The notes below the pieces were generated by a model. It ran no database searches. It saw only the letters and a list, made by a program, of their open reading frames with translations, and had not been told where the DNA came from. Below, in pieces: positions 27,377-64,000 of a stretch of 64,000 nt of DNA (the stretch's first letter is position 1; each line of letters opens with the position of its first letter). A program made the position numbers and the translations under genes. Source of the DNA: Nitrospirota bacterium (lineage in GTDB: Bacteria; Nitrospirota; UBA9217); contig OY760142.1 of assembly GCA_963663225.1 (NCBI GenBank), positions 2,976,001 through 3,040,000 of the forward strand. Reading direction: 5' to 3'.

Positions 27377-28111
27377 CTACATCGCCAGTCCGCCATTGAC
27401 GCCGATAACCTGACCATGGATATACATATTCTCCTCGGTACAGAGAAAATGAACAACAGATGCGATATCGTCGACCTTGCCAACGCGGTTAAGGGGAATC
27501 AACGGGAGGACCTGCTCTTTCGGAATGTCTTTAGTCATTTCCGTTTCGATAAAACCGGGAGCAACTACGTTTACAAAGATGTTTTTCCTGCCGACTTCGC
27601 GGGCCAGCGCTTTTGCCGCCCCGATTAACCCGGCCTTAGAAGCGGAATAGTTTACCTGTCCTGCCTGGCCGACCTGGCCTGATACGGAAGAAATCACTAC
27701 GATTCTTCCTCGTTTTGCCTTGAGCATGGAAAACACCACGGCACGGGTGGTGTTAAAAAAACCGTTGAGGTTAGTTGTGACCACTGAATCCCATTCTTCT
27801 TTTGACATCCACATCAGGAGATTGTCACGGGAAATGCCCGAATTGTAGACAAAAACATCAGGTGACGTGGTTTCCAACCGGGCGCCTAACGCAGCCTCAG
27901 TTTCTTCAAAACTGGACACATCAAAAGAAAAAAGCTCACAGGCGGCACCTGTCGATTCTATCTCCGCTTTAACAGAACGGGCCGCTTCATGATTGCTTTT
28001 ATACGTAAGCCAAATGGAAAAACCGGCTTTAGCCAGCTTCACCGCAATGGCCCGCCCTATCCCGCGGCTGCCGCCTATTATCAATGCAATTTTCTTTGAC
28101 TGGGTTTTCAT
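27377..28111 (-). CDS. fabG: 3-oxoacyl-ACP reductase
   Basis: GGSRGIG, NSGISRD, NYSASKAG, VAPGFIET, GQVIGVNGG. Start set at ATG 28111. Confidence 0.93.
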   Translation of the reverse strand: MKTQSKKIALIIGGSRGIGRAIAVKLAKAGFSIWLTYKSNHEAARSVKAEIESTGAACELFSFDVSSFEETEAALGARLETTSPDVFVYNSGISRDNLLMWMSKEEWDSVVTTNLNGFFNTTRAVVFSMLKAKRGRIVVISSVSGQVGQAGQVNYSASKAGLIGAAKALAREVGRKNIFVNVVAPGFIETEMTKDIPKEQVLPLIPLNRVGKVDDIASVVHFLCTEENMYIHGQVIGVNGGLAM

Positions 28112-28224
28112 ATCGAAAGAAGAAAAGCCGCCTTTCTGCGCAGGTGTTGCAAAATGCTGCAAAATACTCGTGCATTTAACCTTTTAATTTTTCAAGGTAT
28201 TTTTGCTAATCCTGTAAATTTTGC

Positions 28225-28253
28225 ATACTACACTAACATTTTTTGGCTGTCAA
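28225..28253 (-). promoter_or_regulatory. Putative sigma70 promoter of the lipid cluster
   Basis: Minus strand TTGACA-17 nt-TAGTAT, about 110 nt upstream of fabG. Confidence 0.65.
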
Positions 28254-28378
28254 GAGTTTTCCTTTCCGGCAAGCCATAGCGTCATGATACGGGAATAGTA
28301 TGAGAGAAAGAAGAGCTGACGCCTTGTGACCGCAAAAAAAGATTGTCTGGTTTTACAGGAAAGAAGGAGCGCGCACGA

Positions 28379-30076
28379 TTACAATTTATCAAGTACGCTG
28401 AGAAGAACGTTCAGGCTGATTTCAAAGGCAGCGCACGGCATGGTGATTTGAGTACGGTCTAATACTGCCGGATTCAACTCGCCAAGGAACCCAATAGCAA
28501 CTCCGTTTGTAATAATTCTACCGCACCGTCCCTGAATAAAAAGTGGATGTTCTGCAGGTTGCAGCGTGTATTCTATTCCCAGGTAGAACAACAGGACATC
28601 AAGAGAAGCATGCAATTCTGAGAAATTAGCTGCCGGATGAGAGATAACGGCACTAAGATTCAATTCAGTTCTTGATCCCATATTTTCATGTTGATCGTAT
28701 ACCGCAACATCGCCGACCTCAAATATCTTATGCGGATAGAATGCCTTGGAACTTGCAGCCTCAACAGTCAAAAGAGATGGAATAATGCGGTTTCTGAGGA
28801 CCGAGTAGGCCTGGGACATTACATTATCTACTTCTATGAGCCGTTCTTCACGAAACATGGCATATTCGACATCTTCACGCGAGCAAAGAATGTTCGATAT
28901 AATCTCCTGGAAACCGGCCCCGATCATGTATCCCCTGATTGTATCAGCAAGCAGTTCGATCTTTGACAAGGAACCAACGGTCGATTCCTGAGGCATGACC
29001 GGTTTGAACGTATCATATCCCTTGCTGATGGCATAATCTTCAACCAAATCAACGGAATGCATAATATCATCCCGATACGGCGGTACGACGACAGATACGG
29101 TTCCACGGACACCTGAAACAATATGTCCGTACGCATTCAGGTATCTTTTGACATCAGCCGGGGTAACCTCTTCTCCAAGTCCTGCAGAAAAACGTTCAAG
29201 CGGCAGCGTAAACGTTGTGGAAGAGTCATGGGGGAAAACAACGCGTTTTCCCAGCTCTGTCATATAGGGATATGTCACCAGTATCGGCTCAATATCTGCG
29301 CCACGATCCGAAAAACTTGCGGCAAGAATATTGAGGGCGAGGTTCGTCATCCTGAGATCTGTCCCTGTCACTTCTATCAGTACATTACGGGTGTTTGTCT
29401 TCACTTCGCCGATCTCACGGCTGTTGATTATCGGCGGGAACGAGAGCACGCGCCCCATGCTGTCGATCAGAACCGGATACTGCGGAAAAGGTTTCACGAT
29501 GTTCCCGTATTCGATTCCCTTGGGATGGCGCACAAGAATTTCAGCGAGAGTAAGTTTTTCCTCCATGCCGAGCGGAGTAAATGAAATCGATTCCGGATCG
29601 GCAAGTCTGTAGTGTACAGGGAAAACAATTCTGTCGAGTTCATAAATGCCGATGGAAAGCGTGGTCCGTTTTCTGCCGAATATTTCTGCCAGCTTTTCCT
29701 GACTCTGGATCATCTGTGCAAGTACGTCATTATTCATGGGCACGCCGCTCGCGGTGCATGCCGCAAGATAGGGCCGGACAGATCTCATGGATTTCGAAGC
29801 GCGGATTTCGCGTGTTGCTTTTTTGGCGTGTTTGAAAAAAGAGTACGGAGCGGCTTTGCCGGAAAGATAAAGGCGGATTTGACGGGCAACCCCTTCTGCT
29901 GACCAGAGGTCAGGCCTGTTGCTGTCAGACAACTCAATCTTCAGATCATCGGTCTCCGCGTTATAATCCTTGAGCTCCGCTTTCGCGAGCATGAGGTGCT
30001 TTTCAAACGTACGGAGTGACAACGTTCTGCCGATAAGAGAATCAATATCTTTCTTTTTTACATCTATCGTAGGCAT
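28379..30076 (-). CDS. pheT: Phenylalanine-tRNA ligase beta subunit, short archaeal/eukaryotic type
   Basis: 565 aa; MPTIDV, NRPDLWSAEG, QEKL..IFGRKR, SFPPIINS, PPYRDDIMHSVDLVED; lacks the bacterial OB-fold and C-terminal anticodon-binding domains. Confidence 0.92.
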   Translation of the reverse strand: MPTIDVKKKDIDSLIGRTLSLRTFEKHLMLAKAELKDYNAETDDLKIELSDSNRPDLWSAEGVARQIRLYLSGKAAPYSFFKHAKKATREIRASKSMRSVRPYLAACTASGVPMNNDVLAQMIQSQEKLAEIFGRKRTTLSIGIYELDRIVFPVHYRLADPESISFTPLGMEEKLTLAEILVRHPKGIEYGNIVKPFPQYPVLIDSMGRVLSFPPIINSREIGEVKTNTRNVLIEVTGTDLRMTNLALNILAASFSDRGADIEPILVTYPYMTELGKRVVFPHDSSTTFTLPLERFSAGLGEEVTPADVKRYLNAYGHIVSGVRGTVSVVVPPYRDDIMHSVDLVEDYAISKGYDTFKPVMPQESTVGSLSKIELLADTIRGYMIGAGFQEIISNILCSREDVEYAMFREERLIEVDNVMSQAYSVLRNRIIPSLLTVEAASSKAFYPHKIFEVGDVAVYDQHENMGSRTELNLSAVISHPAANFSELHASLDVLLFYLGIEYTLQPAEHPLFIQGRCGRIITNGVAIGFLGELNPAVLDRTQITMPCAAFEISLNVLLSVLDKL

Positions 30077-30173
30077 AGAAAAATCCCAAATTCATAATCG
30101 GTGAAAACTGGTCAAAGCCGGAGACACCGTGGTTCAAAAAACAGCAATTGAAGGTCTCATTATGGTACAATTT

Positions 30174-31739
30174 TTATTTATCCAGACGGATTTTTTTTGT
30201 CCTTATGAAATCCAAATCGCGGGAGAATAAATCGCGTATGTCCTGAATTTCCAGCGCGATCATGGCCATGCGGTCAAGTCCAAGACCCCATGCAATCACC
30301 GGCACGTCAACGCCAAGCGGCAGCGTGACTTCCGGACGGAAAATTCCAGCCCCCCCAAGTTCCATCCAGCCGAGTTTCGGATGTTTTACGTGCAGTTCCA
30401 CCGAGGGCTCGGTAAATGGGAAATAAGCAGGCCGGAACTGGAACTCTGCCGCTTTTGCGATCTCCTGTCCAAACAGTTTTAACAGTCCAAGGAGAGTTTT
30501 GAAATTGATATCCCTGCCGAGAACAATACCCTCAACCTGATAAAAATCAGGGGCATGCGTTGCATCAACAGCATCGTAGCGGAAACAACGGGCAATAGAA
30601 AAATATTTGCCGGGAATTTTGGGACCTGATGCCAGGGTGCGGGCAGAAACCGCCGTTCCCTGGCTTCTGAGTATGAGCCGTTTTGCACGTTCAAGATCAA
30701 AAGAATACTTCCAGCCTGTTGAGCCGGTTTTGCCGCCGTTCTTGTGGGCAGCAGCGACCTGTCTGCCAAAGGGCGCTTCAATCTGCATGGCTGCAGCGGG
30801 ATCTTTTACAAAATAAACATCATGGATGTTGCGGGCCGGATGGAATTGCGGCATGAACAATGCGTCCATGTCCCAGAATTCGTTTTCCACGAGCGGCCCG
30901 CGCATTTCTTCAAATCCCATGCCGATAAACTTATATTTAACAAAATCGAGAAATTCTTTATAAGGATGTTTCCTGCCGATGCTTTGCCGGGGCGGATTCA
31001 GGGCAATGTTATACGCACGAAACTTTTTGTCTTTCCACGTGCCCTGTCTCAGCATTTCCTGAGTGAGGATTGAAGCCTCTTCCACGGCTACTCCGCGATT
31101 TTTCATCAGCCCGAGTAATTCTCTGCCGTCAGGAGTAAGTGTGTAAGCGCGATTCTTTTTTTCTGTTATACGGAAAATACCTTTTGACTTTCCCCGCTTA
31201 TGAAAGTTATCGCGGATGATGGACTGTTCCTGTTCAGGGAAATCGGACAATAACAGCGAATCGTCCCCTGTTTTCTGAATTATTGATTGGAGCAGTTCAT
31301 GCTGGCTGGATTTTTCCGGCTGGTCGAATTCAAGGACACCGCCCTGAACAATGCGAATAATGCTGTTTGATTTCAGAAGGCCGGTGGCAGAACTGATCTC
31401 GGAAGGGTCCATGTTCCAGGATTGGATCATATCCTTGACGGTGAATTGTTTCCCTTCGCGAAGCGCCGTAATAATGCGCATTTCCGGAGTGCCTTTTTGG
31501 CAGTAGTCCCTGCCTGCTTCTGTAAGGGAGACAAGAGACGTGACCGATTCGTCTTTTACATCCAAAAAACCTTTGGATTGAAGCCATCCTGACGCCATAT
31601 CCAGACGGGATTCATCGAGTCCTGATATCTGCAGAATTTCAGAGGCAGGAAGGGAATCTTTGTCAATGAAACAAAACAGTACTTTGTTTTCGAGTGGATG
31701 GAGGCTTTCTATTAATTTTTCTCTATCTATCGGTGCCAT
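30174..31739 (-). CDS. pheS: Phenylalanine-tRNA ligase alpha subunit, long archaeal/eukaryotic type
   Basis: 521 aa with an N-terminal extension of about 250 aa; DALFMPQFHPAR, FRYDAVDATH, YFPFTEPS, AWGLGLDR. Confidence 0.93.
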   Translation of the reverse strand: MAPIDREKLIESLHPLENKVLFCFIDKDSLPASEILQISGLDESRLDMASGWLQSKGFLDVKDESVTSLVSLTEAGRDYCQKGTPEMRIITALREGKQFTVKDMIQSWNMDPSEISSATGLLKSNSIIRIVQGGVLEFDQPEKSSQHELLQSIIQKTGDDSLLLSDFPEQEQSIIRDNFHKRGKSKGIFRITEKKNRAYTLTPDGRELLGLMKNRGVAVEEASILTQEMLRQGTWKDKKFRAYNIALNPPRQSIGRKHPYKEFLDFVKYKFIGMGFEEMRGPLVENEFWDMDALFMPQFHPARNIHDVYFVKDPAAAMQIEAPFGRQVAAAHKNGGKTGSTGWKYSFDLERAKRLILRSQGTAVSARTLASGPKIPGKYFSIARCFRYDAVDATHAPDFYQVEGIVLGRDINFKTLLGLLKLFGQEIAKAAEFQFRPAYFPFTEPSVELHVKHPKLGWMELGGAGIFRPEVTLPLGVDVPVIAWGLGLDRMAMIALEIQDIRDLFSRDLDFIRTKKIRLDK

Positions 31740-31754
31740 AATACGATGCGGCCT

Positions 31755-31783
31755 AGATTACGTCGATTGGATGAAATTGTCAA
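31755..31783 (-). promoter_or_regulatory. Putative sigma70 promoter of pheST
   Basis: Minus strand TTGACA-17 nt-TAATCT, ending 15 nt before the pheS ATG. Confidence 0.55.
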
Positions 31784-31815
31784 GAAAAAACAGACTCATG
31801 CAGAAAACCATCCGC

Positions 31816-32442
31816 CTACTCCATCACAACGATGACCGTAAATCCTTCCTTTGCCTTGATTTCTTTCTGAAGTTTTTCTGCAGCTGCTTTGTTGGAAAAA
31901 CTACCGATTCTTACACGGTGCCACGTACCCTTTCCGGGAACATCTGCGGACACGATGAATGCAGCATAGCCGCGTTGCTTCAGTTTTTTCACATCGGCAT
32001 CCGCAAGTTCTTTTTCCTGATATGATGCAAGCTGAAGCGTATATTTGATTCTTACGGATGAAGACGACGGTTGAACTGCTTCTTTTTTAACCTGGACCTG
32101 GGAGGGCTTGTTCGTCGCCTGATTCTGTTGTTTTGCCGTTGGTTCGACAACTGGTTGTTTTTTTTCAGTTTTAGTTTCGTCGTGTGCAGGGGCAGGCTTT
32201 AGATTAATTGAAACGGTTTTGTCATTTTTGTCGGTCAACGTTTTATAAAAGGTGAATTCTTCCTTTGCGGGTAGATTTTTTGAAACGATGTCCGGGAGAG
32301 GCGGAAGAATTTCATTTTGTGCACCGGTTTTACTCTGGTATTTGCCGACATAATATCCCAGAAAAAAGAAGCCAGCCATTAATGCCACAATAATCGGCAG
32401 CATAAAAAGCTTGAATATGATTCCCCCTCGTTCATTACCCAT
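31816..32442 (-). CDS. SPOR-domain (FtsN/DedD-like) membrane-anchored protein
   Basis: N-terminal TM, FTFYKTL, Pro/Lys-rich linker, C-terminal YTLQLASY...WHRVRIGSF SPOR domain. Confidence 0.85.
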   Translation of the reverse strand: MGNERGGIIFKLFMLPIIVALMAGFFFLGYYVGKYQSKTGAQNEILPPLPDIVSKNLPAKEEFTFYKTLTDKNDKTVSINLKPAPAHDETKTEKKQPVVEPTAKQQNQATNKPSQVQVKKEAVQPSSSSVRIKYTLQLASYQEKELADADVKKLKQRGYAAFIVSADVPGKGTWHRVRIGSFSNKAAAEKLQKEIKAKEGFTVIVVME

Positions 32443-32476
32443 TACAATTTTCCTTTCATAAGACGGTATGGCTTCA

Positions 32477-33508
32477 TCAGAAAATAAACATCGCATCGCC
32501 ATAGCTGTAAAAACGATATTGTTCTTTCACAGCGGTCCTGTATGCGGAGAGAATCTTCTCCCTGCCGGCAAACGCTGAAACAAGCATAAGAAGCGTTGAT
32601 TTCGGCAAATGAAAGTTGGTAATTAACCCATTGATTATTTGAAAACGATAACCTGGATAAATAAAAAGCACTGATTGCCCCTCTCCATGACAGACCATTC
32701 CATTTTCCAAGGCGGCAGTTTCCAGGGTCCGGACACAGGTAGTGCCTACCGCAATCACGCGTCTTCCTTCCCGACGCGCATTGTTTATGCGATCCGCAGC
32801 ATTCTCTGAAATAGTATAATATTCGGGAAGCATCTGGTGCTTCGATATTTCTTCAACCCGAACTGGTTGAAACGTACCGGGGCCGACATGAAGGGTAATG
32901 GTAATAATCTCAACGCCGCGCAGACTGAGTTGACTGAGCAGTTCCTGAGTAAAATGCAACCCCGCAGTGGGGGCCGCCACAGCACCCTCTTGAGAAGCAT
33001 AGACAGTCTGATAGCGGTCACGGTCTTCTTCAGTTGGATTGCGCTTTATATAGGGAGGCAGAGGAACTTTGCCGATAGCGTGCAGTTTTTCATTGATATT
33101 ATCAACACCGGAAAAGCGAACAACCCACGTATCATCAGTTCCCTTTTCTACAACGTCTGCTTCTATTCCTGCGTCAAGGTGCAGTCTTCTTCCAATCCTT
33201 ACTCCGCCTTTTACGAGTGCGCTCCAAAGATTCCGTTCCTGCTCAGCAATCAGAAAGATTTCAGCCTTGCCGCCGCCTGTTTTTTTTGCCGGTAATCTGC
33301 ACGGGAACACCTTTGTATCGTTCAATACCAGTACATCGCCCGGAGCAAGATGATCTTTAATATCCGAGAAGAACGTATGTCTTATTTCATCCGTCTTGTG
33401 ATTAAAGAGCATAAGACGGGAACGATCACGGCATAAAGAAGGTTTCTGCGCAATCAATGATTCGGGAAGGTGAAAAACAAAATCCGACAATCTCAACTGT
33501 TCTGTCAT
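32477..33508 (-). CDS. queA: S-adenosylmethionine:tRNA ribosyltransferase-isomerase
   Basis: LPESLIAQ, VPLPPYI, RYQTVYA, AAPTAGLHFT, TLHVGPGTF, TNFHLPKSTL, YRFYSYGDAM. Confidence 0.97.
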   Translation of the reverse strand: MTEQLRLSDFVFHLPESLIAQKPSLCRDRSRLMLFNHKTDEIRHTFFSDIKDHLAPGDVLVLNDTKVFPCRLPAKKTGGGKAEIFLIAEQERNLWSALVKGGVRIGRRLHLDAGIEADVVEKGTDDTWVVRFSGVDNINEKLHAIGKVPLPPYIKRNPTEEDRDRYQTVYASQEGAVAAPTAGLHFTQELLSQLSLRGVEIITITLHVGPGTFQPVRVEEISKHQMLPEYYTISENAADRINNARREGRRVIAVGTTCVRTLETAALENGMVCHGEGQSVLFIYPGYRFQIINGLITNFHLPKSTLLMLVSAFAGREKILSAYRTAVKEQYRFYSYGDAMFIF

Positions 33509-33620
33509 CGGTACGGTCACGGCTGGATATTACCACATCGGAGTGTTGCGATAAAGAAAAAAGAGGCCTGCGAGTGAAGAGTCCCGCAACTATCGATTCA
33601 ATGAGCAAGAAACAGAGGCA

Positions 33621-53933: not shown

Positions 53934-54135
53934 TATTCAGTCGCCTCCGCGTTTTCAGAACAGCAGTACCAATTTCATCCTGGCAAACCGGCAAAATATC
54001 CCATCGGTAAAATTATTATTTATCATTATTTTTCAATGATTTATGAGCACAAGCATGACCTAATTACCTTGCTGTATAAATAAAATTTATTAAATTAACA
54101 TTAATAACTATGATAGCAAAAAAACCGTTTTTTAT

Positions 54136-54163
54136 TTGCGGGAACCTTACGATCTGATATAGT
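54136..54163 (+). promoter_or_regulatory. Putative extended -10 promoter of the 138-aa hypothetical gene
   Basis: TTGCGG-16 nt-TATAGT with TG at the extended -10 position (TGaTATAGT). Confidence 0.4.
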
Positions 54164-54185
54164 AAAAGGAACAAAAAGGCGTGCA

Positions 54186-54602
54186 ATGAAGATATCTGTT
54201 CCGTTTGCATCATATGATGAACAAAGATACGGCAAACCGTGGGTCGCGGTGATTACCGCCTGGCCGCATGACAGTGATGCCGCGCTCAGATGGGGCGTTT
54301 ATTCCGGCAGTAACAAAGGTGGAGAGGCAGTCGTTGAGGCCTCAGCAGGCGATATAATCCGCTGGGGACAAAAAATCCTTATCGGCAAGCGTATGCAAAC
54401 GCAATCCCATTGGGGCATCGTGGAAGAGGACGGCAGCATAACCGAGTGCACTGCCGGGGATGCAAAGCAGGTATGGGAAAAGCAGTCTGCAACACGGGCA
54501 AAAGACAGCCCGATTGCAGCTGTTCTAGCGGCTATCAGCGATGAGGATTTGATCCTGGAGATTCGGAGACGGGGTCTTCGGACTTACATTAAAAATGAAT
54601 GA
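54186..54602 (+). CDS. Hypothetical protein (possibly phage-derived)
   Basis: 138-aa ORF filling the gap and converging on pyrD with stops 1 nt apart; no recognised catalytic motif. Confidence 0.7.
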   Translation: MKISVPFASYDEQRYGKPWVAVITAWPHDSDAALRWGVYSGSNKGGEAVVEASAGDIIRWGQKILIGKRMQTQSHWGIVEEDGSITECTAGDAKQVWEKQSATRAKDSPIAAVLAAISDEDLILEIRRRGLRTYIKNE

Positions 54603-54603
54603 A

Positions 54604-55566
54604 TTAATTCCTGGCCACTTTCCCGATGATGTCCTTGATGTCCCTGATGCCTTGTTCGATCATCAAGGACTCCATGCCTGAGAGCACATCAAGCGTTGCA
54701 CGGGGATTTACAAAATTGGCCGTCCCGACAGCCACGGCTGACGCTCCCGCAAGAATGAATTCAAGGGCGTCCTCACCCGTTGCAATCCCTCCCATGCCGA
54801 GAATCGGCAGGTGAACAGACTTCGCCACCTGCCACACCATGCGCACGGCCACGGGCTTTATCGCCGGTCCGGACAGACCTCCGGTGCAGTTTGCAAGTCG
54901 GGGCCTCATGCAGCGCACATCAATCGCCATGCCGATGAGCGTATTGATAAGAGACAGGCCGTCACAGCCCGCGTCGCGAGCGGTTCTCGCGAATTCAGTA
55001 ATATCGGTCACGTTCGGCGAGAGCTTCGCGATTATCGGCAGTTTTGTCGCCTTGCGCACCGCCGCCAGCAGTTCGAAGGCCGCTTTCTGGTTCGTGCCGA
55101 ACACAATCCCGCCGGCTTTCACGTTCGGGCAGGAAATATTCACTTCAAGCCCTGCAACACCGGGAACGCCGTCAAGTTTCTCAGCGACCTGCACATACTC
55201 TTCGCAACTGTATCCGAAGATATTGACGATCACCGCAGTGTCGAACTGCCGAAGGTACGGCAATTTCTCGTTCAGAAAAACATCAACGCCCGGATTTTCG
55301 AGCCCGATGGCATTCAGCATGCCTGAGGGGGTTTCCCATATACGCGGCGGAGGATTTCCTTTGATGGGGTTGATTGATATACCCTTGACGATAACTCCAC
55401 CCAGCTTATTCAGGTCGACGAATTCCGCATACTCTTCACCGTAGCCGAATGTCCCGGATGCTGTCAGAATGGGGTTTTTCAGCTTGATTCCGGCAATACT
55501 GACGGAAAGGTCCGGGGTGTGGTTTTTTGATTTCGGACCGCAGGTCCTGTCTTTTTCAGTCTTCAT
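54604..55566 (-). CDS. pyrD: Dihydroorotate dehydrogenase B catalytic subunit
   Basis: ASGTFGYG, GNPPPR, MLNAIGLENPG, NISCPNV, KLSPNV, GGLSGPAIKP. Confidence 0.95.
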   Translation of the reverse strand: MKTEKDRTCGPKSKNHTPDLSVSIAGIKLKNPILTASGTFGYGEEYAEFVDLNKLGGVIVKGISINPIKGNPPPRIWETPSGMLNAIGLENPGVDVFLNEKLPYLRQFDTAVIVNIFGYSCEEYVQVAEKLDGVPGVAGLEVNISCPNVKAGGIVFGTNQKAAFELLAAVRKATKLPIIAKLSPNVTDITEFARTARDAGCDGLSLINTLIGMAIDVRCMRPRLANCTGGLSGPAIKPVAVRMVWQVAKSVHLPILGMGGIATGEDALEFILAGASAVAVGTANFVNPRATLDVLSGMESLMIEQGIRDIKDIIGKVARN

Positions 55567-56443
55567 TCCGCGCTCCGGTCTTGGGGCAGCATTCCAAATC
55601 GGCTGAACAGCATGACTCCTGACTGTCGCCGGCAATGGGAAATCTTGCCTGTCCTCCCCATTCTACATCCCGCGAGTCGAATACCGGCCCCTCTTTGCAC
55701 GCCCGCTTGTATCCGCCCGTCTTCATCGGAATAGAACATCCCATGCACGCGCCGAGGCCGCACCCCATGCGCTCTTCCATCGAAACATAGCATGAGAGAG
55801 AATGTTCCGCGGCCATTTTGCTTACAGCAGCAAGCATGGCATGCGGACCGCAGGCATAAATCACCAGGTGAGCTTTCTTCTCGGTTCTCGTCAAAAATCT
55901 GTTCAGAATATCGGTGGTCATCCCCTTTACGCCCATGCTGCCGTCTTCCGTGGCTATGTGCACCGTGGAGCAGCATTCGCGGAAACGGTTCAAGACTCTT
56001 GAGGGGGGCAGACAGTCCTTGTATCGGGAGCCGACAAACAAATGCACAGCGCCCTTTACCCGCTGAGACAGAAACTGGAGCGGAGGAAAACCGCTGCCGC
56101 CCGCCACCAGCACCGCGGTTTCCTCTTTTTTCGGCAGAGCAAAACCATTGCCGAGCGGCCCGAGAAACTGGAGCGTGCGCCCCGCCTCCATTCGCGTAAG
56201 AAGCGCGGTCCCCCTGCCCGCGATCCGGTACAGGATTTCAATGGTCGAGCGGGACGGAACGGATGCGATGCCGAACGGGCGTGCCAGCAGCGGGTCCAGA
56301 TTTTCCGACACTCTGAGCATAACAAAGTGTCCGGGGCGCGCCGTTGCTGCCGCCGCAGGGGCTTTCAGGATCAGCCGGTAATAACCTCTGCCAGCGGATT
56401 CGTGTGTAAGGACAATCCCCGTGTGCAGTCTAGAGGGCCTCAA
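55556..56443 (-). CDS. pyrK: Dihydroorotate dehydrogenase electron-transfer subunit
   Basis: RPFG, GPLGNGF, AGGSG, YACGP, EERMGCGLGACMGC...CKEGPVF [2Fe-2S] motif. Confidence 0.92.
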   Translation of the reverse strand: MRPSRLHTGIVLTHESAGRGYYRLILKAPAAAATARPGHFVMLRVSENLDPLLARPFGIASVPSRSTIEILYRIAGRGTALLTRMEAGRTLQFLGPLGNGFALPKKEETAVLVAGGSGFPPLQFLSQRVKGAVHLFVGSRYKDCLPPSRVLNRFRECCSTVHIATEDGSMGVKGMTTDILNRFLTRTEKKAHLVIYACGPHAMLAAVSKMAAEHSLSCYVSMEERMGCGLGACMGCSIPMKTGGYKRACKEGPVFDSRDVEWGGQARFPIAGDSQESCCSADLECCPKTGARNED

Positions 56444-56912
56444 TCTGGATCTCCTGGATTTCGTATTCGACGGTTTTGACGGGTGTTTTGATGGTCACAA
56501 CATCGCCGACCTTGTGACTGATCAAGGCCTTTCCCACAGGCGACTGCACTGAAATTCTCCCTTTTTTAAGGTCTGCCTCTTCCTGTCCCACGAGAGTATA
56601 CTTTCTGATATCGCCTGACTCCGTGTCGGCCAGGACTACCGTGGAACCGAACACTACTTTTTCATTTGAGAGCTTGGACACGTCGATAATCTGCGCATGG
56701 GCCAGTTTATGTTCCAGCTCGCGTTTTTTTGCGTCGAGGTGCCCCTGACGTTCTTTTGCGGCATGATATTCCGCGTTCTCCGATAAATCGCCGTGGGCAC
56801 GCGCTTCTTCGATGTCCCGAATATTTTTGGGACGCTCCACCTTGATAATGTGGTCGAGCTCCGCCTTCAGCTTTGCATAACCTTCTTTGGTCATAGGTAT
56901 TTTCTGCGTCAT
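56430..56912 (-). CDS. greA: Transcription elongation factor GreA
   Basis: [29 protein letters not shown]. Confidence 0.97.
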
Positions 56913-59900
56913 GATGTATGATACTCCTGAATGGACTTTACCTGCAGGTGGTTCTTTTTGATTGCCGCAATGCCGCGCACCGCAGCCTTGGCCGCTGAAA
57001 GCGTTGTAAAATAGGGAATCCCTTTCATAAGCGTCGTGCGCCGGATCGAGTAGGAATCCTTTTGCGATTGGGCTCCATACACGGTATTGATCACAAAATC
57101 CACCTGCATGTCCGTGATCTGGTCCACGATGTGCGGCCTGCCTTCGGTCACCTTGTTGACGGTTTCCACGGTGATTCCCTGCCGTTTCAAAAAATCCGCG
57201 GTGCCCCTTGTCGCAACCAGTGAAAATCCCATTTGTTCGAGCCCCTTCGCCACCTCAAGCAGGCCGGATTTGTCTTTGTCCTTAACGCTCAGAAACACGC
57301 GGCCAGACTCCGGCATGGGATTGCCCGCTGCAATCTGTGATTTTGCAAACGACATTCCGAAATCCGTGTCGATTCCCATCACTTCACCGGTGGATTTCAT
57401 TTCCGGTCCGAGGAGTGTGTCCACGCCGGGAAATTTGGCGAAGGGGAAAACCGCTTCCTTCACCGCAATATGCTTGATCTCTTTTTCCTTCGTAAACCCG
57501 AGTTCCGCGAGTGTTCTTCCGCCCATCACTTTGGCGGCAAGTTTGGCAAGCGGCACGCCGATGGCCTTGCTTACGAAGGGAACTGTTCGGGAAGCGCGGG
57601 GATTGACCTCAAGAATATAGATCCGTCCTTCTTTCACGGCGAACTGGATGTTCATTAAACCGACCACTCCCAGCTCAAGCGCGAGCGCCTTTGCCTGCCG
57701 GCTGATTTCTTTCACAATATCCTGGGGAAGCGAAAAAGGAGGCAGTGAACACGCGGAATCTCCGGAGTGGACTCCCGCCTCTTCAATGTGCTCCATGATT
57801 CCCGCGACCACCACCGTTTTCCCGTCGGAGATAGCATCGACGTCGATTTCCACTGCGTCTTCCAGATACTTGTCAACGAGCACCGGCCGCTCCGGAGAGG
57901 CCTTCACGGCGCGGGACATGTAATCACGCACGCTTTCCTCGTCATAAACGATTTCCATGGCCCTGCCGCCGAGCACGTACGACGGACGGACCATTACCGG
58001 ATATCCGATGCGGTTCGCTATCGCCACGGCTTCATCCCGGGAAACCGCCGTGCCGCTCTCCGGCTGAAGAAGGTTTAATTTGTCCAGAAGCTCTTTAAAG
58101 CGCTTCCTGTCTTCAGCGCGGTCTATGCTGTCAGGCGAGGTACCGAGGATGCGGACCCCTTCTTTTTCGAGAGGTACGGCGAGTTTGAGCGGGGTCTGGC
58201 CTCCAAACTGCACGATCACGCCTTCCGGTTTCTCCCGATGTATGATATGCAAAACATCTTCGAGTGTCAAGGGTTCGAAATACAACCGGTCGGACGTATC
58301 ATAGTCCGTACTCACGGTCTCCGGATTGCAATTTACCATGATGGCCTCGTAGCCGTCGTCTTTAAGCGCGAAGGCTGCATGAACGCAGCAATAATCGAAT
58401 TCAATGCCCTGACCAATCCTGTTCGGCCCGCCGCCGAGGATCACGATCTTTTTGCGGTCCGTGGGTTTCGCTTCACTTTCCGCTTGTGCGTCCGCAGCGC
58501 CCGGCTCCTGATTGCCGAGTCTATAAAAAGGTTTTTCGTAGGTGGAATATAAATATGGTGTGTGCGCCTCAAACTCCGCTGCGCAGGTGTCTACGGTTTT
58601 AAATACCGGGATGATGCCGAGTTCCACGCGCTTTTTGCGAATTGTTTCTTCTGTCGTCCCGAGTAAAGCGGCAAGCCTGCGGTCTGAGAACCCGAATTCT
58701 TTTGCCTGCCTGAGCGGATGGTTGAAAACAGAAGCAATGCTGCTCAGAAGGGACGTTCCCTGATCGCGGATTTCTTTTTCCCGGTCGACAATCTGTTTGA
58801 TCTGGTGCAGGAACCAGAGGTCTATTTTGGAAAGCTCGAACACTTCGTCCACACCCATCCCGATCCGAAACGCATCCGCGATATACCATATTCGCTCCCA
58901 GTTCGGAACGCTTATCTTCTGCCGGACATCCGCCACCCCATGCTCTTTTTCTCCATGGCGTTCTCGGTGGGACTCCAACCCATAGCGGTCAATTTCCATG
59001 GATCGGAGCGCTTTCTGAAGCGCCTCCTTGAATGTCCTGCCGATGGACATGGCCTCACCCACGGATTTCATCTGGGTGTTGAGTGTGGCGTCCGCCTGCG
59101 GGAATTTTTCGAAGGCAAAACGGGGGAATTTGACGACCACGTAATCGATAGTCGGTTCAAAAGACGCCGGTGTGGCCTTGGTGATGTCGTTTGTAATCTC
59201 ATCGAGGGAGTATCCGACGGCAAGTTTTGCCGCTATTTTTGCGATGGCAAAACCTGTCGCCTTGGAGGCGAGCGCCGAACTTCGCGACACCCGCGGGTTC
59301 ATTTCAATAATGACCAGCCTGCCGTTATCCGGATTGATGCCAAATTGAATGTTCGACCCCCCGGTGTCCACGCCGATTTCCCGTATGATGCGCAGCGAAG
59401 CGTCGCGCATGATCTGATATTCCTTGTCGGTCAGCGTCTGGGCAGGAGCCACGGTGATGCTGTCGCCCGTGTGGACACCCATGGGGTCCAGGTTTTCGAT
59501 GGAACAGACGATGACCACGTTGTCATGCATGTCCCGCATCACTTCGAGCTCGAATTCCTTCCACCCGACAACGGACTCTTCGATCAGCACCTGGTGCACC
59601 GGGCTGGCTTCAAGGCCCCGGGTAATCAGATCGTTGAATTCTTCCCGGTTGTACGCGATACCGCCGCCCGTTCCTCCAAGCGTGAAAGCAGGACGAAGAA
59701 TCGCCGGAAAACCGATCTGTTCGAGAATCTCATTGGCTTGTTTCATGTTCGTTGCGAAACCGCTCTTGGGCACCTCAAGACCTATCTTCTGCATCGCGTT
59801 CTTGAACAGCTCGCGGTCTTCCGCTTTTTTTATCGCGGGAAGCTTGGCGCCGATCAGTTCGACATTGAACTCCTCCAGCACTCCCATTTCAGCAAGCTTT

Positions 59901-60199
59901 ACCGCCGTATTAAGCGCGGTCTGGCCTCCCATGGTCGGAAGCAGCGCGTCCGGGCGTTCCCGTTCAATGATTGTGGCCACCACGTCAGGCGTAATCGGCT
60001 CAATATAGGTCCGGTGCGCCATCTCCGGGTCGGTCATGATCGTGGCGGGGTTCGAGTTGATCAGCACGATTTCATACCCTTCCTCGCGAAGCGCCTTGCA
60101 CGCCTGCACGCCCGAATAGTCGAATTCGCAGGCTTGCCCGATCACAATCGGGCCCGATCCGATGATCAGTATTTTCTTTATGTCTGTTCGTTTCGGCAT
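56909..60199 (-). CDS. carB: Carbamoyl-phosphate synthase large subunit
   Basis: [30 protein letters not shown], duplicated ATP-grasp domains, [18 protein letters not shown] domain. Confidence 0.98.
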
Positions 60200-60228
60200 T
60201 TATCGTTTCCCTACCTTACATTTTTCAT

Positions 60229-61158
60229 TCACGCATCATGTTCCTGCACCCATCCGTTTTCCAAACCATACCGCTGCATGATCTCATAGGCTTCATCATG
60301 CTCCGCCGCTGTAATTCTGCGCGACAACTCTTGCATTGTATGCGCCTTGTACGCCGGGAAATACTGGGACATGAGGCTGATATATACATCCTTCGATATT
60401 TCCTCGGCAAGAAATTTCATGACCGGTTCCGTCCCGGACCCCCCATCGGGAAGAACAAGATGCCGGACAATGAGGCCCCGTTTTGCGATTCCCTGCTCAT
60501 CCACCACCAGGTTGCCGACCTGGCGAAACATCTCCCTGATTGCCGCCCGGTTTATCTCCGGATAATCCGCCACACCGGAATACCGCGCTGAAACGGCACC
60601 ATCCGAGTACCGCATGTCCGGAAGATAGATGTCCACGATGCCGTCAAGCAGATGAAGCGCCTCCAGCGACTCATAGCCGTTCGTATTATAGACTATCGGC
60701 AAGTCAAACCCCTGACTTCGGGCAATGCCGAGCGATTTCAGAATCTGCGGCATATAATGCGACGGCGTTACCAGGTTTACGTTATGGCAGCCTTTTTCCT
60801 GCAACCAGAGCATCTGGCCGGCGAGCTCTTCCGGATTTTTTTCTACACCATTGCCCATCTGGCTGATTGGATAATTCTGGCAATACACGCAGCGGAGATT
60901 ACAGTTCGCTAGAAAAATCGTGCCGGAACCCCGGAAACCGGAAATCGGCGGCTCCTCGCCGTGGTGTGCGTTCACACTCGACACCAGCGGATTCAGGCCC
61001 GACCTGCAGAAGCCCGACTTGTCGTTCTTCAGTCGGTCGACTCCGCATGTGCGCGGACAGACTCGACAACCCTGTAGCAGACTATAAGCGGCTTCAATCC
61101 GCTTTTGTAATTCGGCATCGGAAATCATCACAAGAAACTGGTTTGCAGTCCTTTTCAA
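60229..61158 (-). CDS. Radical SAM protein, PflX-like
   Basis: CRVCPRTC...C, HHGEEPPISG..GSGTIF, CNLRCVYCQN, NLVTP, VRHLVLP, MSQYFP. Confidence 0.87.
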   Translation of the reverse strand: MKRTANQFLVMISDAELQKRIEAAYSLLQGCRVCPRTCGVDRLKNDKSGFCRSGLNPLVSSVNAHHGEEPPISGFRGSGTIFLANCNLRCVYCQNYPISQMGNGVEKNPEELAGQMLWLQEKGCHNVNLVTPSHYMPQILKSLGIARSQGFDLPIVYNTNGYESLEALHLLDGIVDIYLPDMRYSDGAVSARYSGVADYPEINRAAIREMFRQVGNLVVDEQGIAKRGLIVRHLVLPDGGSGTEPVMKFLAEEISKDVYISLMSQYFPAYKAHTMQELSRRITAAEHDEAYEIMQRYGLENGWVQEHDA

Positions 61159-61190
61159 CCTTGCTCTATCGAATTCTGAAACAGTGTACT

Positions 61191-62318
61191 TCAGCGTTTC
61201 TCTCTATGCTTTTCCATCATATCGGTAAATCGCTTGAACAGATATCTGCTGTCGTGCGGTCCCGGTGACGCTTCGGGATGATACTGGACCGAAAAGGCGG
61301 GCAGCGTCTTGTGCTGAAAACCTTCGCAGGTTTTGTCATTGAGGTTCATATGCGTCATCACAACCTGGTCTTTCACCGTGTCCATGTCCACGGCAAAACC
61401 GTGGTTCTCCGCGGCAATCTCTACTTTACGCGTCGTCAGATCCATAATCGGCTGGTTGCCACCGTGGTGGCCGAATTTGAGCTTGTACGTTTTGCCGCCG
61501 AGTGCAAGACCCAGCAGTTGCTGGCCCAGACAAATGCCGAAAATGGGTTTTTTGCCGAGCAGTTTTCTGATATTTTCGATTGCATAGGTCACCGGTTCCG
61601 GGTCACCGGGTCCGTTGGAAAGAAAAATTCCGTCCGGTCTCATGGCAAGCACGTCCTCAGCTGACATCGTAGCCGGAACAATGGTCACATCGCACCCTGC
61701 GCCGGTGAGCAACCGGAGAATATTGCGTTTGATGCCGTAGTCATAGGCAACAACCTTATATCGGGCAGCAGGTTTTTTCGCATATCCCTTGCCCAGGTTC
61801 CAATCCCCTTCCTCCCAGGTGTATGGCTCTTTGCAGGTAACGTCCTTGGCCAGATCAAGTCCGCTCATTTTGGGAAGCGCTTTTGCTTTTGCCACAAGGC
61901 TTTCAGGGTTCAGATCGCGCGTGGAAATCACCCCCGGCTGCGCCCCGAAGTCGCGAAGATGGCGGGTGAGCGCCCGCGTGTCAATGCCTTGAATGCCGAC
62001 GATGCCGTTTTCCTCAAGATAGGCCTGAAGGGACTTGTTCATCCGCCAGCTGCTCGGAAAATCAAGGTGTTCCTTCGCGATAAAACCCTCCACGTACGGC
62101 TTGATTGACTCAACATCTTCACTGTTCACGCCGTAGTTTCCCATCTGCGTATACGTCATCGTGACGATCTGACCTTTATACGAGGGATCGGTCAGAATTT
62201 CCTGATACCCGATCATGCTCGTGTTGAAGACCACTTCCCCGGATGTTTCGCCTTCAGCACCGAACGAACATCCTTCAAATATCAAACCATCAGCCAATGC
62301 AAGGAGAGCTCTTTTCAT
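61191..62318 (-). CDS. carA: Carbamoyl-phosphate synthase small subunit
   Basis: [32 protein letters not shown]. Confidence 0.97.
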
Positions 62319-62368
62319 ATTTTATTTTCCTTTAATCCGCATTTCAAAATCAGAAAACCGAACTTCGA

Positions 62369-63655: not shown

Positions 63656-63658
63656 TCG

Positions 63659-64000
<342 letters not shown>

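What the first reader, a model, noticed from the sequence alone, without database searches (positions are those of the whole stretch)
28379..31739. Archaeal/eukaryote-type phenylalanyl-tRNA synthetase in a bacterial chromosome
Seen: alpha is 521 aa with a long N-terminal extension and beta is only 565 aa with MPTI, GRKR and SFPPIINS signatures. Known: typical bacterial PheRS is about 330-350 aa (alpha) plus about 800 aa (beta with OB-fold and anticodon-binding domains); the long-alpha/short-beta form is archaeal/eukaryotic and in bacteria is best known from spirochaetes. The genes are also outside the usual thrS-infC-rpmI-rplT-pheST-ihfA context. Inference: horizontal replacement of a core translation enzyme in this lineage, next to the lipid cluster.
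Basis: partly seen in the sequence, partly recalled or inferred. Interest (0 to 1): 0.7.

Follow-up and report, generated by a model that had tools for sequence, protein, structure and literature searches.

The report
Archaeal-type PheRS in a Nitrospirota bacterium
This bacterium charges tRNA-Phe with an archaeal/eukaryote-style two-gene enzyme that long ago displaced the normal bacterial one, a swap shared by more than half of its phylum and by several other bacterial phyla, so it is real and evolutionarily instructive but not unique to this organism.

Summary
The ORFs at 30174..31739(-) and 28379..30076(-) are archaeal/eukaryal-type PheRS alpha (521 aa) and beta (565 aa), and they are the only PheRS in a closed 3.26 Mb Nitrospirota genome. 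It is not a mis-assembly. The swap is not specific to this lineage: 234 of 401 sampled Nitrospirota genomes have the archaeal type and 156 the bacterial type, and none was seen with both. The nearest relatives outside the phylum are bacteria (Planctomycetota, then Spirochaetota; also Eremiobacterota and WOR-3 by submitter labels), not the named archaea sampled. In most archaeal-type Nitrospirota the pair sits in the ancestral pheST slot beside thrS-infC-rpmI-rplT. In this family that slot is empty (rplT then amiC), and the pair lies 2.87 Mb away between queA-SPOR and a lipid-type cluster. tRNA-Phe keeps the bacterial identity set (U20) and is 76/76 identical to that of a relative with bacterial PheRS. 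Three organismal markers place this family among bacterial-type lineages (AU p=0.0097). So either a second, within-phylum transfer occurred, or both types coexisted for a long time and were lost differentially; the PheRS tree cannot decide (AU p=0.41). This is a new member of a known kind, of moderate interest.

The parts
30174..31739 (-). pheS, archaeal/eukaryal-type PheRS alpha subunit, 521 aa: an N-terminal extension of about 220 aa plus the class II catalytic core
   Evidence: ORF. NF003210 at 572.3 bits over residues 12-518. PF01409 at 243-513. Best PDB matches are cytosolic-type alpha chains 8s8b_A and 3l4g_A at about 233-236 bits, against about 122 bits for bacterial alpha. The HPAR, FPFTEPS, motif-2 and motif-3 stretches align.
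30077..30173 (-). 97-nt spacer between pheS and pheT; the two genes form one co-directional pair
   Evidence: Coordinates. pheS lies directly upstream of pheT in all loci that hold both genes and in 65 of 80 spirochaete-type metagenome loci.
28379..30076 (-). pheT, archaeal/eukaryal-type PheRS beta subunit, 565 aa (B1, B3/4 editing-type domain, B5, catalytic-like module)
   Evidence: ORF. TIGR00471 at 491.8 bits over residues 1-559. Pfam B1 1-71, B3_4 139-273, B5 290-354, CLM 360-555. PDB 2cxi_A 251 bits, 8s8b_C 247 and 3l4g_B 237.5, against about 47 bits for bacterial beta.

Best explanation
The two genes encode the cell's only phenylalanyl-tRNA synthetase, an (alpha-beta)2 enzyme of the archaeal/eukaryal type. 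It entered bacteria horizontally as a two-gene pheS-pheT cassette and now forms a bacterial super-clade (Nitrospirota, Planctomycetota, Spirochaetota and others). Within Nitrospirota the cassette displaced the bacterial pheST at its ancestral position next to thrS-infC-rpmI-rplT. In the window's family (GTDB-coded f1, a class of its own) the bacterial pair is gone from that slot, and the archaeal-type pair sits at a different, family-conserved site between queA-SPOR and a lipid-type cluster. The enzyme works on an unchanged bacterial-type tRNA-Phe (U20, U45, U59, A26:G44, A73, GAA), so no co-transfer or remodelling of the tRNA was needed. Shown: the type, uniqueness, distribution, gene order, tRNA sequence and tree positions. 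Inferred: activity (because it is the sole copy and its motifs are intact) and the order of events. I lean (about 55:35) to the view that f1 and f37 received their copies through a second, within-phylum transfer rather than through long coexistence and differential loss. The stated confidence is for the main statement, not for that lean.
For: Type.

Sole copy: 1 PF01409 hit, 1 PF17759 hit and no bacterial pheT over cut-off in a 1-contig, 98.99%-complete genome.

Distribution: archaeal pheT in 234 of 401 genomes and bacterial pheT in 156 of 401. None of the 30 families listed by name in the tallies has both types, and the 16 genomes of the 13 further families split 12 archaeal and 4 bacterial.

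Trees: beta, 81 rows, core Nitrospirota clade at 99, with Planctomycetota-holding and named-spirochaete clades as the next neighbours. Concatenated alpha+beta, 43 rows: Nitrospirota at 97, plus Planctomycetota and unnamed bacteria at 98, spirochaete type at 100.

Names: 17 of 17 organism-named hits to the neighbouring clade are spirochaetes. 14 of 14 organism-named hits to the deep unnamed representatives are bacterial.

Slot: in clade A the order is thrS>infC>rpmI>rplT> <pheT_a<pheS_a in G094, G073, G032 and G352. In f37 it is rplT>pheS_a>pheT_a. In bacterial-type f7 and f11 it is rplT>pheS_b>pheT_b; f6 shows rplT>pheS_b up to a contig end, with pheT_b on another contig. In G000 it is rplT>amiC.

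tRNA: a single tRNA-Phe, 76/76 identical to that of G026, which has bacterial PheRS. Position 20 is never G in 13 of 13 genomes. Identity rules come from PMC9976931.

Not an artefact: the queA-SPOR flank is present in 24 of 27 family loci, and an independent 62 kb contig spans the region at about 97.6% identity.

Old event: GC/GC3 is 0.48/0.50 and 0.475/0.49, against a genome ORF mean of 0.513±0.038 / 0.572±0.075.

Second transfer: the RpoB+RpoC+SecA tree puts f1 with bacterial-type f6 (98) and f37 with six bacterial-type families (100). ARCH monophyly is rejected (dlnL 83.6, p-AU 0.0097). In f37's GTDB class, 3 of 151 genomes have the archaeal type and all 3 are f37. The f1-f37 PheRS/marker distance ratio of 1.60 is lower than all 152 other within-phylum pairs.
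Against: Activity, oligomeric state and tRNA recognition were not measured. Named archaeal sampling is thin: only 4-5 Aenigmatarchaeota-type loci carry names, and the 100-row 'other half' of the FastTree is unnamed. An archaeal lineage inside the 'bacterial' super-clade therefore cannot be excluded.

Support values are SH-aLRT from quick searches. The mixture-model species tree did not finish. The RpoB-only mixture tree left f1 in an unresolved base.

The PheRS data do not reject f1+f37 as sister to all clade-A families (dlnL 3.7, p-AU 0.41). The f1-to-clade-A and f37-to-clade-A distance ratios (medians 2.35 and 2.47) fall inside the clade-A range of 1.77-3.99. Both results fit vertical descent from a very early acquisition just as well. 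The alpha tree alone does not resolve Nitrospirota as one clade.
Confidence: 0.85

Rival explanations
1. There was one acquisition at or before the root of Nitrospirota, followed by long coexistence of both PheRS types beside rplT (rplT>pheS_b>pheT_b> <pheT_a<pheS_a). Reciprocal loss then followed: clade A, f1 and f37 lost the bacterial pair, and the other lineages lost the archaeal pair. No second transfer occurred. This rival concerns only the order of events; it shares the main statement about what the genes are.
For: The convergent arrangement in clade A is what deleting a bacterial pair from such a tandem would leave. The PheRS data accept f1+f37 as sister to clade A (p-AU 0.41), which mirrors the marker tree. 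Divergence ratios of f1 and f37 to clade A are ordinary.
Against: No genome was seen with both types among 401. It needs about six independent losses and coexistence across several deep nodes, including the f1/f6 split. In f37's class, 0 of 148 genomes outside f37 retain the archaeal type. The f1-f37 PheRS pair is closer than any other pair relative to the markers. f37's co-directional arrangement needs an extra inversion.
Confidence: 0.3
2. There was a direct, lineage-specific transfer from an archaeon into this family.
For: The enzyme is of the archaeal/eukaryal type, and Aenigmatarchaeota loci were found at 36-37% identity with the same pheS-pheT adjacency.
Against: The closest sequences outside the family are other Nitrospirota (48-60% identity in beta). 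All 22 Nitrospirota rows form one clade (97). The next relatives are bacteria at 39-49% identity, with named archaea further away.
Confidence: 0.02
3. It is an assembly chimera or a contaminating contig.
For: None found. Raw reads of run X24 laid 0 reads, so they gave no test.
Against: The genome is a single 3.26 Mb contig with 0.95% contamination. The same flanks appear in 24 of 27 independent family loci. A 62,020-base contig from an independent metagenome run (X1) spans 27000-33000 with 140 substitutions and 3 indels, and a 61,417-base contig of X19 spans it with none. No other PheRS exists in the genome. GC is ordinary.
Confidence: 0.01
4. The long-alpha/short-beta form is ancestral in these bacteria, inherited vertically from before the bacterial/archaeal split, and the 'bacterial' form is the later arrival.
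For: The type occurs in several bacterial phyla that together form one group in the trees.
Against: It is absent from 10 of 10 bacterial control genomes. It is patchy inside each phylum: for Nitrospirota, and PMC3191353 for spirochaetes (Leptospira and Brachyspira are bacterial-type). The bacterial type sits in the conserved rplT slot in Nitrospirota families f6, f7 and f11.
Confidence: 0.03

Closest known systems
Archaeal-type PheRS of Spirochaeta/Borrelia/Treponema (Andam & Gogarten 2011, PMC3191353; passages read)
   Same: The same enzyme type and subunit sizes (alpha 513-528 aa, beta 514-573 aa in spirochaetes). Both subunits were transferred together. It is the sole PheRS, and its distribution is patchy within the phylum. 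In my trees the named spirochaete sequences are the next-but-one neighbours of the Nitrospirota clade.
   Different: A different phylum, with no occurrence of 'Nitrospir', 'Leptospirillum' or 'Planctomyc' in that paper. Here the pair occupies, or has left, the rplT slot, whereas rplT is near the pair in 0 of 72 spirochaete-type loci. That paper infers a Thermococcales-like donor; I could not test this because I had no named Thermococcales sequences.
Archaeal/eukaryal cytosolic PheRS (PheRS-A; human FARSA/FARSB, PDB 3L4G as listed in PMC11580382; PDB 2cxi beta fragment)
   Same: The domain order and length of both subunits and the conserved catalytic signatures. These are the best PDB matches.
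   Different: The host is a bacterium, and the cognate tRNA-Phe has U20 rather than the G20 determinant reported for archaea and eukarya (PMC9976931).
Canonical bacterial PheRS (pheST after thrS-infC-rpmI-rplT; TIGR00472)
   Same: The same cellular job. In clade A and f37 the foreign pair even occupies the same chromosomal slot.
   Different: Beta scores 138 bits against a cut-off of 402.65 and lacks the OB-fold and the C-terminal anticodon-binding domain. Alpha carries a 220-aa N-terminal extension.
Archaeal-type TyrRS/TrpRS in CPR bacteria (PMC5370408; search listing and abstract only)
   Same: An archaeal-type synthetase replacing the bacterial one in uncultured bacteria.
   Different: According to that abstract the tRNAs there carry archaeal identity. 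Here tRNA-Phe keeps the bacterial identity set and is identical to that of a relative with bacterial PheRS.
Xenologous gene displacement in situ within conserved operons (concept recalled from Omelchenko and colleagues, 2003; not read here)
   Same: A foreign isofunctional gene takes the place of the native one in a conserved gene string. This holds for clade A and f37.
   Different: In the window's own family the slot is empty and the foreign pair is elsewhere, so the window itself does not show displacement in situ.

Membership tests
Archaeal/eukaryal-type PheRS alpha (NCBIfam NF003210 / PRK04172) | Whole-protein score above the curated cut-off, with full-length profile coverage including the N-terminal extension | tested here: met
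   572.3 bits against a cut-off of 350; residues 12-518 match profile positions 3-494 of 496.
Archaeal/eukaryal-type PheRS alpha (NCBIfam NF003210 / PRK04172) | Class II catalytic core with intact signature stretches (HPAR, motif 2 FR.., FPFTEPS, motif 3 G.G..R) | tested here: met
   PF01409 at 243-513. The alignment to 8s8b_A shows these stretches conserved. Which residues count as catalytic is from recall.
Archaeal/eukaryal-type PheRS beta (TIGR00471 pheT_arch) | Score above the curated cut-off over the full length | tested here: met
   491.8 bits against a cut-off of 282.65; residues 1-559 match profile positions 1-551.
Archaeal/eukaryal-type PheRS beta (TIGR00471 pheT_arch) | Domain order B1, B3/4, B5, catalytic-like module, with no B2 OB-fold and no C-terminal anticodon-binding domain | tested here: met
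   Pfam B1 1-71, B3_4 139-273, B5 290-354 and CLM 360-555 in 565 aa. B3_4 (25.3 bits, cut-off 29.3) and B1 (25.2, cut-off 26.8) fall just below Pfam's gathering scores.
Archaeal/eukaryal-type PheRS beta (TIGR00471 pheT_arch) | Functional editing site in B3/4 (hydrolysis of Tyr-tRNA-Phe) | not tested
   The domain is present and aligns to 2cxi_A over residues 1-354, but individual editing residues were not checked.
Bacterial PheRS beta (TIGR00472 pheT_bact) | Score above the curated cut-off; about 800 aa with OB-fold and anticodon-binding domains | tested here: not met
   138.4 bits against a cut-off of 402.65; only profile positions 402-695 are matched.
Active PheRS | Charges tRNA-Phe with phenylalanine as an (alpha-beta)2 heterotetramer | not testable with these tools
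   Inferred from its being the only PheRS in a near-complete genome and from conservation across 234 genomes.
Gene displacement in situ at the rplT-pheST slot | The foreign pair lies directly next to thrS-infC-rpmI-rplT in place of the native pair | tested here: not met
   In G000, rplT is followed by an AmiC-like amidase, and the pair lies 2.87 Mb away. The feature is met in relatives: clade A genomes G094, G073, G032 and G352, and f37 genome G311.

The most novel reading that the evidence does not exclude
The archaeal-type pheS-pheT pair behaves as a mobile two-gene cassette that has been passed between bacterial phyla (Spirochaetota, Planctomycetota, Nitrospirota, Eremiobacterota, WOR-3). 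Inside Nitrospirota it has repeatedly displaced the bacterial PheRS, at least three times (clade A, f37, f1), usually landing in or beside the rplT slot. It needs no change in tRNA-Phe. PheRS type would then be a serially sweeping replacement rather than a single synapomorphy.
Probability: 0.4. Interest if true: 0.6.

Novelty: new member of a known kind. Interest (0 to 1): 0.45.

Why it matters
First, it widens a textbook example of inter-domain transfer of a core translation enzyme, previously known from spirochaetes. It now reaches a phylum that contains the main nitrite oxidisers, and several further phyla. One beta hit labelled 'Nitrospira sp.' is 82% identical to family f9.

Second, pheS and pheT are widely used as phylogenetic and typing markers. 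In Nitrospirota they are two non-orthologous gene pairs, so trees or completeness estimates that use them need care.

Third, an archaeal-type PheRS here works with a tRNA-Phe that carries the bacterial determinant set and lacks G20. This gives a natural system for asking how much position 20 matters to this enzyme class.

Fourth, the three gene arrangements (convergent in the slot, co-directional in the slot, relocated) give an unusually readable record of how an essential gene pair is exchanged without a lethal intermediate.

Fifth, inhibitors aimed at bacterial PheRS would probably not act on these organisms. That last point is an inference.

Tried and rejected
- **Alpha homolog search.** The named search with alpha returned only close Nitrospirota relatives: the 120 listed are all 76% identical or more, so it gave no outgroups.
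- **ESM Atlas on P0122.** Too coarse to name a clade ('commonest Spirochaetota'). I did not use the second call.
- **Archaeal tRNA-Phe.** BLAST with the bacterial tRNA found none in the two Aenigmatarchaeota genomes: G405 gave no hit, and the G406 hits were tRNA-Thr. I therefore could not check G20 in the nearest named archaea myself and rely on PMC9976931.
- **Mixture-model tree of the three concatenated markers.** It did not finish. The careful LG+G4 search did not finish either, so I used the quick LG+G4 tree.
- **Raw reads of X24.** 0 reads laid, so this was no test. X23 held only short pieces and one odd joint in a 502-base contig at low depth, which I do not interpret.
- **Recent transfer from clade A.** I considered that f1's copy came recently from a clade-A member and rejected it: divergence ratios are ordinary and GC is ameliorated.
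- **Functional link to the lipid cluster.** Rejected, because the adjacency holds in only 9 of 24 family loci.
- **Structure and complex prediction.** I ran neither. The alpha-beta pair is a textbook complex, and a pass would not change the reading.
- **Literature.** Searches found no report of archaeal-type PheRS in Nitrospirota, nor did passages of PMC3191353, PMC4427996, PMC5388404, PMC11580382 and PMC3636077. Supplements were closed, so the supplementary trees and tables of PMC3191353 and PMC5388404 may list such cases. Subscription journals are not in the library.
Full report
**What is there.** The window holds two co-directional ORFs on the minus strand, 30174..31739 (521 aa) and 28379..30076 (565 aa), separated by 97 nt.
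- The first ORF matches the archaeal-type PheRS alpha equivalog NF003210 at 572.3 bits (cut-off 350) over residues 12-518.
- The second matches TIGR00471 pheT_arch at 491.8 bits (cut-off 282.65) over residues 1-559. It reaches only 138.4 bits against the bacterial model TIGR00472 (cut-off 402.65).
- Pfam gives alpha the class II core at 243-513. It gives beta the order B1, B3_4, B5, catalytic-like module, with no OB-fold or anticodon-binding domain.
- Against solved structures, alpha is closest to cytosolic-type alpha chains (8s8b_A 236.5 bits, 3l4g_A 232.7) and scores about 122 bits against bacterial alpha. Beta is closest to 2cxi_A (251 bits), 8s8b_C and 3l4g_B, and scores about 47 bits against bacterial beta.
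- The HPAR, FPFTEPS, motif-2 and motif-3 stretches align.

**It is the only PheRS and not an artefact.** The window lies at 2,976,001-3,040,000 of a single 3,255,001-base contig rated 98.99% complete and 0.95% contaminated.
- The whole genome has one PF01409 hit, one PF17759 hit and no bacterial pheT over cut-off. The only other TIGR00472 hit is a 27-bit OB-fold match in a 678-aa frame.
- GC and GC3 of the two genes (0.480/0.496 and 0.475/0.489) lie about one standard deviation from the mean of 861 long ORFs (0.513±0.038 and 0.572±0.075).
- The upstream flank queA-SPOR-pheS-pheT recurs in 24 of 27 independent family loci with at least 3 kb of upstream sequence (tblastn, at least 40% coverage).
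- A 62,020-base contig from an independent metagenome run (X1) spans 27000-33000 with 140 substitutions and 3 indels. A 61,417-base contig of run X19, which may be the source, spans it with no difference.

**Who the organism is and how far the trait spreads.** Named relatives of beta are Nitrospirota MAGs (54-98% identity). Next come Phycisphaerales (48-49%), unclassified bacteria (42-45%), a Planctomycetota MAG (39%) and Aenigmatarchaeota (36-37%).
- Across 401 Nitrospirota species genomes at least 80% complete, 234 have an archaeal-type pheT at E<=1e-60 and 156 have a bacterial pheT at E<=1e-100.
- The per-family tallies are complementary. Archaeal-type examples: f1 54/56, f9 86/87, f16 41/41, f10 17/20. 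Bacterial-type examples: f3 10/10, f11 36/36, f15 14/14, f23 15/15.
- No listed family has both types, I saw no handle in both lists, and 11 genomes have neither.
- A hit labelled 'Nitrospira sp.' is 82% identical to the f9 sequence.
- The window's GTDB class consists of family f1 alone (57 genomes, 55 with the archaeal type).

**Phylogeny of the enzyme.** An exhaustive search with beta gave 6,788 hits at E<=0.001, and I used the best 150 representatives.
- *FastTree, 215 rows.* Every archaeal-type Nitrospirota family falls in one 70-row clade (support 93).
- *Site-heterogeneous quick tree, 81 rows.* It gives a core Nitrospirota clade (23 rows, SH-aLRT 99). Its sister is a small clade with family f10 and unnamed bacteria. 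Next come a Planctomycetota-holding clade and then a clade that contains named spirochaetes. All of these, together with some unnamed deep representatives (61 rows, support 90), stand against a 20-row side that holds the Aenigmatarchaeota.
17 of 17 organism-named hits to the neighbouring clade are spirochaetes, including Spirochaeta thermophila DSM 6578. 14 of 14 organism-named hits to the deep unnamed representatives are bacterial: 9 Nitrospirota, Candidatus Eremiobacteraeota, WOR-3, NPL-UPA2 and 2 labelled 'bacterium'.
- *Alpha alone, 43 rows.* It gives the spirochaete type at 99 and Nitrospirota+Planctomycetota+unnamed bacteria at 88, but it does not resolve Nitrospirota as one clade.
- *Both subunits concatenated, 1,089 columns.* Nitrospirota, 22 rows, 97. 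Planctomycetota and unnamed bacteria as sister, 98. Spirochaete type, 100. The tree is rooted on four Aenigmatarchaeota.
- *Gene adjacency.* pheS lies directly upstream of pheT in all loci with both genes and in 65 of 80 spirochaete-type metagenome loci. This fits transfer as a pair.

A caveat applies: few archaeal sequences in my set carry names, so the donor remains unidentified.

**Gene order tells how the swap happened.** In this genome thrS-infC-rpmI-rplT is intact, but an AmiC-like amidase follows it rather than pheST.
- *Clade-A genomes G094 (f16), G073 and G032 (f9), G352 (f41):* thrS>infC>rpmI>rplT> <pheT_a<pheS_a. The foreign pair lies convergently in the old slot.
- *G311 (f37):* rplT>pheS_a>pheT_a, co-directional in the slot.
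- *Bacterial-type G030 (f7) and G036 (f11):* the classical rplT>pheS_b>pheT_b. G029 (f6) shows rplT>pheS_b up to a contig end, with pheT_b on another contig.
- *G026 (f3):* it keeps a bacterial pair, but on a different contig from rplT.
- *Short loci:* rplT was also seen beside pheT_a in f35, f38 and the f2-like L052. The other short loci had only about 250 nt of flank, so absence there means nothing.
- *Outside the phylum and in f1:* rplT is not near the pair in 0 of 3 Planctomycetota loci, 0 of 3 unnamed-bacterium loci, 0 of 72 spirochaete-type loci, and none of the f1 loci with 6 kb flanks.

**The tRNA did not change.** The genome has 47 tRNA genes and one tRNA-Phe(GAA), with U20, A26, G44, U45, U59, U60, A73 and an encoded CCA.
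- The review by Giegé and Eriani (PMC9976931; Table 1 and the phenylalanine section read as passages) lists U20, U45, U59, A26:G44, A73 and G34-A36 for bacteria. For archaea and eukarya it lists G20 in place of U20.
- In an alignment of 13 tRNA-Phe genes, position 20 is U in 10 of 11 Nitrospirota, whichever PheRS type they have. It is C in G094 and G404 and A in a Planctomycetota genome. It is never G.
- The tRNA-Phe of G026, which has a bacterial PheRS, is 76/76 identical to that of this genome.

**Was there more than one replacement inside the phylum?** The evidence for a second replacement is as follows.
- An RpoB tree and a concatenated RpoB+RpoC+SecA tree (3,526 columns, LG+G4, quick search) place 16 archaeal-type families in one clade (95 and 99).
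- The concatenated tree puts f1 next to bacterial-type f6 (98). It puts f37 next to a clade of six bacterial-type families (100).
- The marker data reject a single clade of all 18 archaeal-type rows (dlnL 83.55, p-AU 0.0097).
- Independently of my markers, GTDB places f37 in a class where 3 of 151 sampled genomes have the archaeal type. All three are f37, and the 20 other families score 0 of 148.
- In the PheRS tree f1 and f37 are sisters (100). Their PheRS-to-marker distance ratio (1.60) is lower than that of all 152 other within-phylum pairs.

The evidence against it is this.
- The PheRS data do not reject a tree in which the clade-A families exclude f1+f37 (dlnL 3.72, p-AU 0.41).
- The distance ratios of f1 and f37 to clade A (medians 2.35 and 2.47) lie within the clade-A range (median 2.62, range 1.77-3.99).

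Two histories therefore remain open. One is an early gain in clade A followed by old within-phylum transfer into f37 and f1. The other is a very early gain with long coexistence of both types and reciprocal loss. I favour the first, for three reasons: no genome with both types was seen among 401, coexistence needs about six losses, and f37 is a lone archaeal-type family inside a bacterial-type class. The margin is modest.

**Comparison with what is known, and novelty.** The closest known case is the spirochaete PheRS (PMC3191353). This is the same kind of event in another phylum. The Nitrospirota, Planctomycetota and spirochaete enzymes appear to be each other's closest relatives. Public annotation already names these proteins correctly. 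My searches of the paper library found no description of the Nitrospirota case (passages). Supplements and subscription journals were not visible. I rate it a new member of a known kind. The in-slot displacement, the unchanged tRNA and the possible serial replacement are the parts worth following up.

**Limits.** Support values come from quick searches. The mixture-model species tree did not finish. Enzyme activity is inferred, not measured.

Noticed in passing
window 23550-28162 (-): A five-gene lipid-type cluster lies directly downstream of pheT: PF01553 acyltransferase, a PP-binding carrier protein, KAS (PF00109/PF02801), an amine-oxidase/NAD_binding_8 flavoprotein, and an SDR/KR reductase. 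All five genes follow pheT in 8 family loci, and partly in a ninth, out of 24 with enough downstream sequence. Its product is unknown.
   Followed up: partly
relatives: e.g. G036:C1:1778795-1780951, G027:C9:89689-91740, G030:C262:1406-3469: In many Nitrospirota families (f4, f7, f11-f15 and others) the bacterial-type PheT is only about 690-725 aa. It matches TIGR00472 at positions 1-39 and 156-798, so it seems to lack the B2 OB-fold domain. f3 and f6 have full-length PheT of about 800-827 aa. The bacterial-type PheRS of this phylum is itself heterogeneous.
   Followed up: no
L303 (G026:C22) and L304 (G026:C5): Family f3 keeps a bacterial pheS-pheT pair, but it is not found after rplT: the two lie on different contigs, and no pheS follows rplT within 7 kb. 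The rplT slot has therefore been vacated more than once in the phylum.
   Followed up: partly
P0457 and P0146 (proteins): A beta subunit labelled 'Nitrospirae bacterium' by its submitter is 70% identical to representative P0146 and only 39% identical to the window's beta. P0146 branches far from the Nitrospirota clade, near an NPL-UPA2 sequence. This is either a mislabelled bin or a further independent acquisition.
   Followed up: no
G000:C1 genome-wide: The genome encodes a tRNA-SeC(TCA) among its 47 tRNA genes, so the organism probably uses selenocysteine.
   Followed up: no
window 54001-64000: GC rises to 0.52-0.55 in the last 10 kb of the window, compared with 0.45-0.49 over 18-54 kb.
   Followed up: no
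window 31816-33520 (-): queA (PF02547, 435.9 bits) and a SPOR-domain protein lie immediately upstream of pheS. The queA stop overlaps the SPOR ORF start by 26 nt. queA is another tRNA-related gene, but its adjacency to pheS is specific to this family.
   Followed up: partly
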